A DNA stretch of 64,000 nucleotides from Eledone cirrhosa (taxonomy: Eukaryota): the NCBI GenBank assembly GCA_964016885.1, contig OZ024743.1:47430001-47494000 (forward strand). The letters are read 5' to 3'. Made by a program: the position numbers and the translations under genes. Below are positions 39,940 through 62,190 of the stretch, piece by piece (the first letter of the stretch is position 1; every line of letters begins with the position of its first letter). Under the pieces are notes generated by a model. The model did no database searches, was not told the DNA's origin, and saw nothing but the letters and a program-made list of their open reading frames with translations.

Positions 39940-41958
39940 GTGTCTCTCTTCTCCCTCCCTTCTCTTTCGCAAGCGACGACAGAAAAAAAAAATCTCGTGC
40001 AAAGCGTGCAAGATTTCTCCACGACGACGACGACAACGACGAAACAGGTGTGCGGGAAATACGAAAACCCATTTCATTCGTCTGACGTCAGGAATAATAG
40101 CAGTAGCAGCCGTAATAACAGCAGCAACAGTGACAAGGAAAACAACAGTAGCAGCCGCAACAGCATCAGCAGCAGCATAAACAACAACAGCATTAGCAGC
40201 AACAACAACAGCAGCAGCAACAACAACAACAACAACCACAGCAACAGCGGCGCCGGCAGTAGTCGTAGTACCTGCAGCAACAACAAAAGTAACAGCAGCT
40301 CTGACGACAACAACAACAACAACAGCAGCAAAGAAAAACCAATCTCGTTTGCAGGTATCGCAAAGAACCTGGAAACCATCCTCATGACAAATGAGGAATT
40401 AAAGGAAGCGAAGAAGATGGTGACAAAAACTGGACACCGAGCAATCTGCAAGGCAGCGGAAAATGTTTTCGAAACCCAAGAGCACTGTACGGTCACGTAC
40501 CGTACAGTAAGTACAAAATCCCGTAGGGTTGAAAGAGCCACAGAGGCTCAAATACAAAAAGCCTTGGGGTCTGTGTGGCAGCGGATCACCCGAGGCAAGA
40601 AATATGCCACCGTAGACGTACTTTTTGCCACACCCCAGGAGGCAAAGGATCAATCCTTAGTGACCCTAAGGAGCGAGGAAATGGTGTTGGTGCCCTCCTA
40701 CTGCGGGCAAAAAATTGTGAGGGTCAAACTGACCCACGTCCCCCCCCCCCCCCCCGGGATGACCCCTTTTTGGCTGGCCGCGTCTGTCCTCGTCCGAATC
40801 GAGGACAAAACAACTGTACTGCAAGTACAGAAAAAAGTAAGAGAAGATTGGGTCGGCACCTCCATTGAGATGGTAATCCAAACCAACCAGGAGTGCATCG
40901 AAGCTATCCCGGATGTGATAGACTTCGATAACGGCACTCAACTGCCCATAAGTGTTGAGGGCAAACGCCCGAAATGCTTTCGCTGTGGATCGAAGACTCA
41001 CCTCAGGGCCTTTTGCAACGAGAAGACCCTGAAAAAGGAGAAAACCCCCCTCCTTCCGAAACCGGCTCCACGGCTACCAGCAACAGGACAAGCGGCAACC
41101 AGGAACGATAGATCCGTGGCACCCATACCCACGCCACGGAAATCAAAAACAGCAGCAGCAGTGGAAGTATTAACAACAACAGCAATACCAAATGCAGCTG
41201 CAACAGAGACTCCAGTGCAAACATCACCAACAACAACAAGTGAAAGAGTGGAGCTGGTACCCCTCCCCGACCTCACAGAATCAGACATGGAGTGTGAGGT
41301 GGGAGAGGGATGGCAAAAGGTCGTAAGAAGGCACAAACGCAGAAGCAGCGCATCGTCGCCATCGAAAAGGGAGGAAAGAAATGAAAAAAGGGTAAAGGCT
41401 ACTGCAAAGAGACTCACAGCAGCAACACCACCAACACCATCACCACCCACACTAGCACCACCATCACCACCGGCGACAACCCCACCGCCAACAACAACAA
41501 CACCTTCAACACCACCACCACAAGCACCAACATCGCAAACACAACAACAAAACACACACACCCAGCAACAACGACAAGAAAATAGCAGAACCACACCCCA
41601 CCCCCAGAAAAACAAATGCACGGCAATAAATACACACAACGAGAAACTAATGACTTACATAATTAAACACACAGACATTTCACAACACGACTACATAATA
41701 CCAGCACCAATCAAAACGCCAACTAACATAAGACTGCTAACAATAGCACAGAAATAATACACAAACATTAAAACGAAATTCCCCAACGCAGTTGGTGATT
41801 TCAGAGACCTAGGAAAGACTCTCAACCGAAGAGTATATTCGGACATACTCATAGAAGAGCCGACGACCAGCCGAAGGGACGATTCAACGGTCCCTTCACC
41901 AGACGATCAAGTGAAAAGGGACGGAAAAACCATCCCTCCTCTACGAAAAGTACGGTAG
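39940..41958 (+). CDS. Tx1 ORF1 (nucleic-acid-binding, CX2CX4HX4C knuckle); premature TAA at 41755; true start uncertain
   Basis: CFRCGSKTHLRAFC. The frame continues past the stop to ...LRKVR-TAG, homologous to the copy 2 C-terminus. Confidence 0.85.
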
Positions 41959-41993
41959 GTGGTCTTTCCCATCTTTTCCACTGTATTTTAAAC

Positions 41994-59700: not shown

Positions 59701-62190
59701 AGTGCTAATCCGCTTACTGTAAGCTTTGTTTGTCGGTCAGGACAAGTTTAGCTTCCAGTAACCGGGTTCTATCAAGGTTCACCACTCCGGTCACCAACTT
59801 GTGATCCGAATAGTTAACCATGAACATTCGTGGACAGCTTAATATGTCCCTATCCTTATTTCTAACTAGGAACCTATCTAGGTACGACCTAGATGTTCCG
59901 CTGCGATTAGTCCACGTCCACAGTGGCACAGTCGGAAAATCTAGTCGATATCTATCGGCCAGATCAAATCGGCCGATTAATCGTTTGAGGCTGTTACACC
60001 CCCTTCTATCGGGACATTCCCCTACATAGTCCCAACGTGCATCCAGGATACCATTCCAGTCACCCACTAAAAGCAAGGAGCGAGACGTTCTCAGGAAAGT
60101 CTCCAGGCGTCGGAAGAAGTCCGATCGCGGTGTCCCAGATGGGGCATACGCTGCCACCAGCCTGAAAGCTCCACCTTCACTACTGCCGACGTCTAGAACC
60201 ACCAGTCGACCCTCCGGGTCCAGGTGTACCTTCTGTGTGGCAAGACCCAGGTGTTTTCGCAGTAGAACGACAACCCCACCCCCACCCCTCGGCTGACAGA
60301 GAGATGCGTAGATTTCAAAGTCGTCGAAGATGGGGGCCAGTTGGCGCTCGCTGCTGAACCTGGACTCGAAAATAGCCATTACATCCACTCTGTGCGACCT
60401 GAGGTCATTTAAGAGTTTTCCCTGTTTCCAGGACATCTCCAAGCCGCGTGAATTCACACATCCAACTCTTATATTGGCCATGTTGGTGCTGAAGAGTTAA
60501 AAGGAAGAGGAAAGGAAATTACTTACCTCTTCGTCTCCTGGGGACCAGGCTGCACAATTTCCATGGGGGTGTTGGAAGGGTTGTTTGGTGGGTGGTGGTT
60601 TGTGGTGGGGTGAGGACATCAGTGTGTGGTGGGGTTGGGGTGTTTGGTGGGGTGTGGGTGTCTGGTTTGGGGGTGGGGAAACATCTCAATAGGACGCGGT
60701 TAAGTGGTTTGGTGCAGGTGGGCCCCACATCCATTGGATGGTTCTTTTTCAGAGTTACATAGGTTTCCGTTGGGACCCTAATCATCATTAGGTGCGGTTT
60801 GCCCGCTGCGTAGATGAAAGTGATCCCTTCGGTTTCCACCGAAGGGTTATTGTCTATTGCTTTCATCGAAGTTTTATTGTTCTTGTTAATGTATGTATAG
60901 TGTTTTTGTTGTGTTGTGTTTGTTTTTGTTTGTTGTTCTTGCGCGTGTTTGCGTTTTGTAGTATGTGTTATGTTTTCGGGAGGGGTGGGTTTTTTTGTTT
61001 GTGGTGTTTGTTCTGTTTGTGTTGGTGGCTGTGTGTTTGCTGCATTTTTGTTAATGTGGTGCATTTTTTTTCTTTCCTTTTCACCTGTTCGAAGGGTTCT
61101 CTTTCGTCGTCACTTGGTGACGTTGATACGGAGTCCTCTTCCGATTTGTTGGGGAGGGGTATGGGGTTTTGTTGTGGTTGCTTTTGTATTTGTTTTAGGT
61201 GGGGAGGGGTTGGGTGGGACAGTGTCTTGTGTTGTTATTTTTCCGTGTTGTTGTGGTTGTTGTTGTTGTTGTGGTGGTGGTGGTGGTAGTGGTGGTGGTG
61301 GTGGTTGTGTTGTTGTGTTCGGGGTTGGCAGAAGAGCCTTTTTTTTATTCGTTAATTGAGGACAGGCAGCCCTCAGGTGACACCTGCTTAAGCAGTGGTA
61401 ACATGACTGCCGCCTACCCTCCACTGAAATGTTTATATAGGTTAGCCCGTCCAGGGGCACGCGTTGTGGGATATTCGCTATTCGTTCAGGGCTCATTTGC
61501 ACCAGAACTTCTACGCTAGTCCCACCAAATACACCTTCGGAGGACTTTCCTACTGAGATTATCCTGTCTTCATCAAAATCAATAAATCCAAAAGTCACGT
61601 ATTGTTTTGCGTCTTGTAGTAGTTGTTTTGCATTAGTTATGTCAATTGGCGTGTGTAGTTCGTTTTTTTTTTACAGTTTGTGCGAACGTTGTTTTGGTGT
61701 TCTTGTCTTTTTTGTTGCTGTTGTTGTTGTCACTGTTGTTGATGTTGTTCATGTTTTCCTTGGTGTTGTTATTGTTGCAGTTGTTGGTTGTGGTGTTATT
61801 GTCATTGTTCTTGTTGTTGGTGCTGGTATTATTTACCGGGTTTGGTTCCGTGGTTTCAATATTTACAACGTTTTTCGATAAGGCGAGGGTGGAAGGCTGC
61901 AAGCTTTGTACTCCTACCTTCCCTCCACCATTTTTCTTAGTGGACGTGGCACTCACTACAGTGTGCGAGGTTGAAATGGCATCCATTATTGACTATCAAG
62001 TTTACACAGATTTTAAGATGAAAATTTCGCCCCAAAAAGAGGCGAAAATTAGTTAACTCAACGTCTGAAGGCCCAGACAAGGGGTTAAACTAAACAATAC
62101 TAACAAATTGAACAATGAACTCACAGTTTTTTTAACAATAATCCGTAAAAATCCGGAGCGAAGTAATGCACGTCTATCGAATGGAAGAGA
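56800..62190 (-). mobile_element. Tx1/L1-clade LINE copy 3 (different subfamily, frameshifted; 5' boundary approximate)
   Basis: ORF1 pieces 60519-61986 (CYHCLSRCHLRAAC) and ORF2 pieces 57051-60481 (GDWN, SDH, PGLDG, YADD, CPRC..H...C). Confidence 0.92.

What the first reader, a model, noticed from the sequence alone, without database searches (positions are those of the whole stretch)
41950..60530. Splice-donor consensus overlapping the Tx1 ORF1 stop: possible spliced ORF1-ORF2 fusion
Seen: copy 1 reads cg|GTAGGT (41955), copy 2 ag|GTAAGT (48720), copy 3 ag|GTAAGT (60526, minus). Each is followed by a pyrimidine-rich spacer and an AG. In copies 1 and 2, joining to ctcAG|a (42007; 48771) removes 53 or 52 nt including the stop and the ORF2 ATG, giving in-frame ...VR-IGSINARG. 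In copy 3, both cttcAG| (38 nt) and ataAG| (59 nt) are in frame if ORF1 ends agg-taa as in copy 2; the track's ORF ends in another frame, so this needs an upstream frameshift. Stop-to-ATG spacers differ (35 vs 34 nt), which argues against conserved readthrough, and the donor persists although the ORF1s are otherwise divergent. Established: LINE ORF2 is normally made by reinitiation from unspliced RNA. Inference: a retained micro-intron switch producing a Gag-Pol-like fusion, or a U1 binding site with another role.
Basis: partly seen in the sequence, partly recalled or inferred. Interest (0 to 1): 0.78.

Follow-up and report, generated by a model that had tools for sequence, protein, structure and literature searches.

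The report
Conserved, unspliced donor site in LINE
A lineage of jumping genes keeps a textbook splice-donor sequence where its first gene ends, but no genomic copy examined is spliced there and the frames needed for a fused protein are not kept, so it is likely a landing site for the U1 splicing particle that protects the full-length RNA rather than a fusion switch.

Summary
The three donor-like sites, spacers and AGs are at the stated coordinates. The donor is more than chance. G|GTRRGT sits at the ORF1 end in 140 of 155 junctions from ten subfamily groups in this genome, although only 20 of 81 fourfold ORF2 sites are invariant across seven of them. It recurs in a sister lineage at 41% ORF2 identity. 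The fusion reading fails: 0 spliced against 3,742 unspliced genomic copies (human L1's 2% rate predicts about 75). The homologous acceptor is out of frame in 27 of 27 family-5 copies and the first AG in 12 of 18 family-4 copies. Would-be introns are 34-68 nt, and the ORF2 ATG is conserved. In the sister lineage ORF1 stops before the donor, so no fusion is possible. No conserved distal acceptor was found. Best reading (inferred, 0.4): a mostly unspliced U1 snRNP site that protects full-length bicistronic RNA from premature polyadenylation, as in HIV-1, foamy virus and EVD copia. Rivals: ORF1-only splicing, a non-U1 cis signal, inheritance. Splicing in RNA is untested.

The parts
39615..46499 (+). 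Copy 1: L1/Tx1-like LINE, subfamily F1; frameshifted, with an internal 3' duplication and an (ATT)n tail at 46476-46499 (ends approximate)
41953..41960 (+). Copy 1 donor-like site cg|GTAGGT overlapping the ORF1 stop (41956-41958); the family state is GTAAGT
41959..42007 (+). Copy 1 pyrimidine-rich spacer (35 nt), ORF2 ATG at 41994, proposed acceptor AG ending at 42007
41625..41772 (+). Poly(A)-signal hexamers in the A-rich 3' half of copy 1 ORF1 (41625, 41662, 41767), upstream of the donor
46500..52472 (+). Copy 2: same lineage, subfamily F2, inserted head-to-tail after copy 1. ORF1 ATG 46709, stop 48721-48723; ORF2 48758-52181 (endonuclease, RT, zf-RVT), broken by a poly-G run at 48955-48972; (ATT)n tail 52425-52472
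48718..48725 (+). Copy 2 donor-like site ag|GTAAGT overlapping the ORF1 stop; strongest sense-strand U1-pairing site in an F2 copy scanned
48724..48771 (+). Copy 2 spacer (34 nt), ORF2 ATG at 48758, proposed acceptor AG ending at 48771
48229..48446 (+). Poly(A)-signal hexamers in copy 2 ORF1 (48229, 48441), 491 and 279 nt upstream of the donor
52320..52339 (+). Best-scoring acceptor-like site downstream of the donor in F1/F2 (3' UTR); not conserved in F3-F5
57051..60481 (-). Copy 3 ORF2 (subfamily F3a), frameshifted
60521..60528 (-). Copy 3 donor-like site ag|GTAAGT overlapping the ORF1 stop
60468..60522 (-). Copy 3 spacer with a strong acceptor-like CAG 38 nt from the donor, ORF2 ATG at 60481, and an AAG 59 nt from the donor

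Best explanation
The motif is a conserved 5' splice-site sequence at the ORF1/ORF2 boundary of an L1/Tx1-like LINE lineage that likely binds U1 snRNP without normally being spliced, and so would keep the full-length two-gene RNA from being cut and polyadenylated early in the A-rich end of ORF1. ORF2 is likely made from its own conserved ATG on that unspliced RNA, as in other LINEs. Shown: the motif, its nucleotide-level conservation independent of the ORF1 frame, its complementarity to this genome's U1, and the absence of spliced genomic copies. Inferred: U1 binding in the cell, the anti-polyadenylation role, and reinitiation at ORF2.
For: (1) GT[AG][AG]GT is present in 140 of 155 junctions across ten groups, with donor-to-ATG distances of 28-46 nt and dissimilar spacers. 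Only 20 of 81 fourfold ORF2 sites are invariant across seven multi-copy groups. (2) It is kept whatever the ORF1 frame: overlapping the stop (F1-F4), one codon before it (F5), and just after it in a sister lineage at 41% ORF2 identity (74 of 74 contexts counted in overlapping loci). (3) Variants seen between families are donor-compatible (A/G at +3 and +4). Pairing with the 5' end of this genome's U1 is -10.1 to -12.3 kcal/mol, and it is the strongest sense site in 5 of 6 donor-bearing elements scanned. (4) 0 of 3,742 genomic copies are spliced at the junction; no distal splice join was found; no acceptor is conserved across families. (5) 15 of 17 copies carry AATAAA/ATTAAA within 500 nt upstream. 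(6) Precedent: HIV-1's donor 195 nt downstream of a poly(A) signal suppresses it, and foamy virus U1 binding does so without splicing (PMC3694450, passages); EVD's U1 site blocks premature termination (PMC5580714 section 8).
Against: There are no functional or RNA data. The upstream hexamers are largely explained by composition (9.9 of 17 expected in shuffles; the copies come from about six families and are not independent), and most lie further from the donor than HIV's 195 nt (83-491 nt). ORF2 has few hexamers to protect (6 against 14.4 expected), and there is no strong U1 site near the 5' end of ORF1. F6 has a weakened GTAAAG (2 of 2 copies, both degraded). One of the two sampled sister sublineages (L320) and 13 of 14 more distant L1/Tx1-like junctions lack a strong site. 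A/G variation at +3/+4 is equally explained by stop-codon interchange in F1-F4. Human L1 keeps an unused donor because it lies in a RUNX3 site (PMC5860796 discussion).
Confidence: 0.4

Rival explanations
1. [quoted passage not shown]
For: Its position is locked to the ORF boundary. Identity with the sister lineage runs beyond the U1 core (14 nt shared with F2). L1 and SART1 use cis-assisted reinitiation (PMC5972666 passage). L1's G98U99 donor is kept for a transcription-factor site.
Against: Its distance to the ATG varies from 13 to 46 nt and its frame relative to the stop varies. The pyrimidine spacer is absent in the sister lineage while the donor core stays. The invariant positions are those that pair with U1. 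A second donor-like site follows the ORF2 stop in the sister lineage, where there is nothing to reinitiate.
Confidence: 0.25
2. A real but minor donor spliced to a distant acceptor (3' UTR or ORF2), giving an ORF1-only mRNA, as the short gag RNA of copia elements. Lacking RT in cis, such RNA would rarely be copied into the genome.
For: In every frame seen the donor leaves ORF1 essentially whole and removes the ORF2 ATG. The best heuristic acceptor downstream of the junction lies in the 3' UTR in F1/F2, and the sister lineage has high-scoring 3' UTR sites. Precedent: Ty1/copia (PMC5580714 abstract and section 8).
Against: The 3' UTR acceptor is absent in F3-F5, and no acceptor column scored in 5 or more of 17 elements (heuristic score). 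No genomic copy joins the ORF1 end to a distal AG (joins whose second base is T are not covered). The two long deletions found do not end at AG. ORF1 is already first on the full-length RNA, so a separate mRNA is not needed (established knowledge).
Confidence: 0.2
3. No function: an ancestral Arg-stop context was inherited, and the match in the sister lineage is coincidence.
For: Octopod subfamilies still share 49-96% of fourfold sites. F6 and L320 lack the strong site. 1 of 15 other junctions (L218) has one, near the 1-2% background.
Against: Three positions free of coding constraint (+1, +5, +6) are the same in all seven multi-copy groups; 0.25 cubed is about 0.015. The spacer next to it has diverged. 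The closest outside lineage has the site in another frame (about 2-4% by chance).
Confidence: 0.1
4. One reading: a retained 38-59-nt micro-intron whose removal fuses ORF1 to ORF2 (Gag-Pol-like).
For: The first AG after the donor is in frame in F1 (23 of 23), F2 (35 of 35) and F3 (35 of 35). F3's CAG is a strong acceptor by heuristic. In F5 an AG 5 nt further on is in frame.
Against: 0 of 3,742 genomic copies are intronless (upper 95% bound about 0.08%). Spliced human L1 RNAs that encode ORF2 do retrotranspose (131 of 6,609; PMC5860796 section 7), and cis preference would favour the very RNA that makes the fusion. The homologous acceptor is out of frame in 27 of 27 F5 copies, although its sequence context matches F1/F2, and the first AG is out of frame in 12 of 18 F4 copies. 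The stop lies upstream of the donor in the sister lineage. ORF2 relatives begin with their own Met, and the longest of the 120 listed is 1,298 aa (search range to 1,936 aa). Introns of 34-46 nt are below usual animal minima (recalled; no host figure found).
Confidence: 0.05

Closest known systems
L1-clade / Tx1-type non-LTR retrotransposons
   Same: Two ORFs; ORF1 with a CCHC knuckle; ORF2 with AP endonuclease, RT and C-terminal zinc domain; best solved-structure match is human L1 ORF2p (E 9e-47, against R2 5e-21); short spacer with its own ORF2 ATG.
   Different: A strong 5' splice-site motif fixed at the ORF boundary; 13 of 14 distant L1/Tx1-like junctions sampled lack it. Microsatellite tails and head-to-tail arrays.
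HIV-1 and foamy-virus major splice donor as poly(A) suppressor (PMC3694450)
   Same: A U1-complementary site near poly(A) signals in a retroelement RNA that must stay full length.
   Different: Those donors are also used for splicing and guard a defined LTR signal. Here the candidate signals are scattered ORF1 hexamers and the role is only inferred.
Arabidopsis EVD / Ty1-copia short gag RNA (PMC5580714)
   Same: A conserved donor after the structural-protein region; U1 binding coupled to termination control.
   Different: An LTR element with one polyprotein ORF, conserved intron with acceptor, splicing shown. Here ORF1 has its own stop and no conserved acceptor was found.
Human L1 SpIREs (PMC5860796)
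   Same: A LINE carrying a conserved, rarely used donor.
   Different: That donor is in the 5' UTR and leaves about 2% spliced genomic copies. Here it is at the ORF boundary and 0 of 3,742 copies are spliced.

Membership tests
L1 clade (non-LTR, APE-bearing) | ORF2 with N-terminal AP endonuclease, RT and C-terminal zinc domain | tested here: met
   Pfam PF03372, PF00078, PF13966; closest PDB sequence is human L1 ORF2p
L1 clade (non-LTR, APE-bearing) | Separate upstream ORF1 with RNA-binding / CCHC features | tested here: met
   CX2CX4HX4C read directly in copy 2 ORF1; Atlas features 0.90-0.93 to CCHC/ZCCHC3-type clusters (lead only); no Pfam hit over cut-off
Tx1 group | RT phylogeny with reference Tx1 elements | not testable with these tools
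   No named Tx1 reference was retrieved; relatives are unnamed apart from one Argonauta hians protein; the tree (quick method) has no reference Tx1
Tx1 group | Target-sequence preference | not tested
   (ATT)n and (TATC)n tails and head-to-tail arrays were seen; target sites were not analysed
Spliced Gag-Pol-like fusion (micro-intron switch) | Donor and acceptor conserved in frame across families | tested here: not met
   Out of frame in 27 of 27 F5 and 12 of 18 F4 copies; stop upstream of the donor in the sister lineage
Spliced Gag-Pol-like fusion (micro-intron switch) | Intronless retrotransposed copies | tested here: not met
   0 against 3,742
Spliced Gag-Pol-like fusion (micro-intron switch) | Junction reads in RNA | tested here: inconclusive
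   No run on record as RNA was available
Copia-type spliced structural-protein mRNA | Conserved acceptor partner for the donor | tested here: not met
   The 3' UTR acceptor is only in F1/F2; no shared column by heuristic score
U1-mediated poly(A) suppression (HIV-1 / foamy / EVD type) | Conserved site complementary to host U1 5' end | tested here: met
U1-mediated poly(A) suppression (HIV-1 / foamy / EVD type) | A poly(A) signal within range of the site | tested here: inconclusive
   15 of 17 copies within 500 nt upstream against 9.9 expected; copies not independent
U1-mediated poly(A) suppression (HIV-1 / foamy / EVD type) | Loss of full-length RNA on mutation, rescued by compensatory U1 | not testable with these tools
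   needs a reporter experiment

The most novel reading that the evidence does not exclude
An invertebrate L1/Tx1-like lineage has kept a U1 snRNP site at its ORF1/ORF2 boundary across deep divergence, plus a second one after ORF2 in the sister lineage. It uses them as retroviruses and copia elements do, to choose between full-length RNA and a shorter ORF1-only RNA by blocking polyadenylation or by occasional distal splicing. This would be a U1-based expression switch in a LINE.
Probability: 0.4. Interest if true: 0.7.

Novelty: new variant of a known kind. Interest (0 to 1): 0.42.

Why it matters
LINEs are thought to depend on unspliced bicistronic RNA, with splice sites a cost. A perfect donor held at the ORF boundary through frame changes and down to 41% ORF2 identity suggests that some LINEs recruit U1 for their own use, as HIV-1, foamy virus and copia do. 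The hypothesis is cheap to test: one 8-nt motif, thousands of young copies. The negative result is also useful, because 0 of 3,742 spliced copies makes a Gag-Pol-like fusion very unlikely for this lineage. Ten literature searches (judged from listings and abstract openings) showed no report of such a site. The library lacks most subscription papers and Repbase reports.

Tried and rejected
RNA evidence: no RNA holder listed (six runs, kind not on record, contigs only). Four runs were laid on L018:900-2600. No donor-to-acceptor joint was among the 15 joints shown (202 not shown). This is no evidence either way, and no closer read-level view of the junction was obtained, so splicing in RNA stays open. 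Two contigs whose alignment starts at the acceptor (X4 record 10, X5 record 18) fit diverged subfamilies such as F5 rather than a spliced form (inference). Run X4's uneven depth cannot be read as expression. Fused proteins in databases: the ORF1 C-terminal 100 aa against proteins of 176-2000 aa gave no hit among 38 candidates (weak evidence). An ORF2 N-terminal query gave 6 relatives, none with an ORF1 tail. A 3' UTR acceptor as universal partner was rejected: absent in F3-F5. An acceptor upstream of the ORF2 ATG for an ORF2-only mRNA was rejected as general: such an AG was seen in F3, F6, F8 and F9 but not F1, F2, F4 or F5. My own early note that F3's CAG frame varies was wrong; it is in frame in 35 of 35. 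First metagenome scan and the viral scan: nothing. Host minimum intron length: no figure in the search listing. Earlier scan notes: none. Subfamily F3c (19 of 47 rows; 16 fetched) appears to read ORF1 through the donor, but that frame rests on homology only, so it is not counted in the frame tallies. In one search, junctions without an upstream ORF of 150 codons or more were left out. Complementarity of the spacer to 18S rRNA was considered and not tested.
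Full report
What the window holds. Three copies of a two-ORF non-LTR retrotransposon lie at about 39.6-46.5 kb (+), 46.5-52.5 kb (+, head-to-tail with the first) and 57-62 kb (-). 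ORF2 has AP endonuclease, RT and zf-RVT domains. Its best solved-structure match is human L1 ORF2p. ORF1 carries a CCHC knuckle. The genome is 3.0 Gb. The only named close relative of ORF2 is from Argonauta hians (73% in the RT region), so the host is probably an octopod (inference).

Observation. All coordinates, AG positions, intron lengths and spacer lengths check out. Copies 1 and 2 are near-identical at the junction and count as one observation. Copy 1's GTAGGT is a private variant. Copy 3's family ends ORF1 at AGG-TAA (L167, 553 open codons).

Is the donor more than chance? I collected 155 junctions. Eighty loci came from similarity to the window's junctions; the rest came mainly from patterns on the ORF2 start that ignore the upstream sequence. 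GT[AG][AG]GT lies 38-46 nt before the ATG in 140 of 155; 2 have GTAAAG (F6) and 13 have neither. In subfamilies found only by the blind patterns (F4, F5a, F5b, F6, F8, F9) the count is 47 of 57. Across seven multi-copy groups, fourfold ORF2 sites are 49-96% identical pairwise and only 20 of 81 are invariant. The three donor positions free of coding constraint are the same in all seven (about 0.015 by that rate). The site pairs with the 5' end of this genome's U1 at -10.1 to -12.3 kcal/mol (F6: -8.3). It is the strongest sense-strand site in 5 of 6 donor-bearing elements scanned.

Outside this genome. Contigs filed in a bacterial MAG carry tandem arrays of a related element, presumably host DNA of an unknown animal (inference). 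Its ORF2 is 41% identical to copy 2 and falls in the clade sister to the octopod group (SH-aLRT 100, quick tree). There ORF1 ends in TAA and is followed at once by G|GTAAGT, 13 nt before the ORF2 ATG, in 74 of 74 contexts (overlapping loci, so units may be counted twice). The other sampled sister sublineage (L320) lacks the site at the junction, as do 13 of 14 more distant elements. Background is 1-3 of 157-181 windows. Both sister sublineages have a donor-like site shortly after the ORF2 stop.

Test of the fusion model. (a) Genomic copies. Patterns anchored on the ORF1 end and the ORF2 start found 2,818 unspliced F1/F2 and 924 unspliced F3/F4 junctions, and no precisely spliced one. The single short match was an internal deletion that keeps the donor. 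The upper 95% bound is about 0.08%; the human L1 SpIRE rate of about 2% would give about 75 (PMC5860796 section 7). Because ORF2p acts preferentially on its own RNA (same paper, discussion), an RNA making the fusion should be the favoured template. (b) Frame. The first AG is in frame in F1-F3 (93 of 93). The homologous AG is out of frame in 27 of 27 F5 copies, whose ORF1 ends one codon later in another phase, and the first AG is out of frame in 12 of 18 F4 copies. F5 shares the F1/F2 acceptor context, so the spliceosome would have to pick different AGs from the same sequence. With AGs in two phases within 10 nt, an in-frame join is weak evidence anyway. (c) In the sister lineage the stop precedes the donor, so splicing cannot fuse. 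(d) Full-length relatives start at a Met just before the endonuclease motif; the longest listed is 1,298 aa. (e) The introns would be 34-68 nt; the shortest are below usual animal minima (recalled).

Test of distal splicing. Searches for ORF1 ends not followed by T at +2 returned point mutants, small indels, a local duplication, a further subfamily (F3c) and two long deletions that do not end at AG. A strong acceptor-like site lies in the 3' UTR of F1/F2 but not F3-F5. A heuristic scan of 17 elements found no shared acceptor position. An RT-less ORF1-only RNA would leave few genomic copies, so this rival is weakened, not excluded.

Most likely working. The element is transcribed as one unspliced RNA. 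ORF1 is translated first and ORF2 from its own ATG, likely by reinitiation as proposed for L1 and SART1 (PMC5972666, passage). The boundary motif likely binds U1 without a usable partner; the nearby AGs are too close or not conserved. The use I rank first is suppression of early cleavage at poly(A) hexamers in the A-rich ORF1 end. 15 of 17 copies have one within 500 nt upstream, but 9.9 are expected from composition and the copies are related, so this shows a possible need rather than selection. Precedents: HIV-1 and foamy virus (PMC3694450, passages) and EVD (PMC5580714, abstract and section 8). Against it: no RNA data, F6 and L320 manage without the strong site, and human L1 keeps an unused donor for an unrelated DNA-level reason.

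Odds. Unspliced U1 site 0.40; non-U1 cis signal 0.25; ORF1-only splicing 0.20; inheritance and chance 0.10; fusion 0.05.

Novelty. The element is an ordinary L1-clade LINE. The conserved boundary donor is a real and unusual feature for which ten searches (listings only) showed no report. No supplements were read. Papers seen: PMC5860796 (abstract, section 7, first part of the discussion), PMC5580714 (abstract, section 8), PMC3694450 and PMC5972666 (passages). Verdict: observation confirmed, fusion not supported, new variant of a known kind, interest 0.42.

Noticed in passing
L284-L322 (14-15 nt after the ORF2 stop); L320:3982: The sister-lineage elements carry a second donor-like site at the start of the 3' UTR and, in L284/L290/L298, an acceptor-like site about 240 nt further on; a possible 3' UTR intron or second U1 site.
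   Followed up: partly
window 46330-46499 and 52280-52472; L161-L198 3' ends: All octopod subfamilies with a 3' end in hand share a short palindromic motif and a conserved stretch ending in the poly(A) hexamer, followed by an (ATT)n or (TATC)n tail; a candidate RT-recognition module.
   Followed up: no
window copies 1-2; G000:C1 near 66.40 Mb; contigs behind L284-L322: Elements occur in head-to-tail arrays about 5.9-6.6 kb apart, suggesting insertion into their own microsatellite tails.
   Followed up: no
L018:950-1350: Run X4 shows about 1000-fold higher summed contig depth over the 3' half of ORF1 than over the junction, falling off near the two poly(A) hexamers; the library kind is unknown and contigs cannot show RNA ends.
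   Followed up: no
L330-L345: Subfamily F3c has a 23-nt longer ORF1 end and only 28 nt from donor to ATG; by homology ORF1 reads through the donor and overlaps the ORF2 start.
   Followed up: partly
window 37157-39379 (-): Fragment of another non-LTR element with RT and zf-RVT, unlike the three copies studied.
   Followed up: no
window 31951-34467: Penelope-like fragment with a weak GIY-YIG hit (E 9e-4, under cut-off) and a duplicated segment.
   Followed up: no
window 14107-14484 (+): Isolated ORF1-like fragment with a CCHC knuckle resembling this lineage's ORF1.
   Followed up: no
L284-L329: Several bacterial MAG records contain eukaryotic LINE arrays, probably host DNA binned as bacterial.
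   Followed up: no
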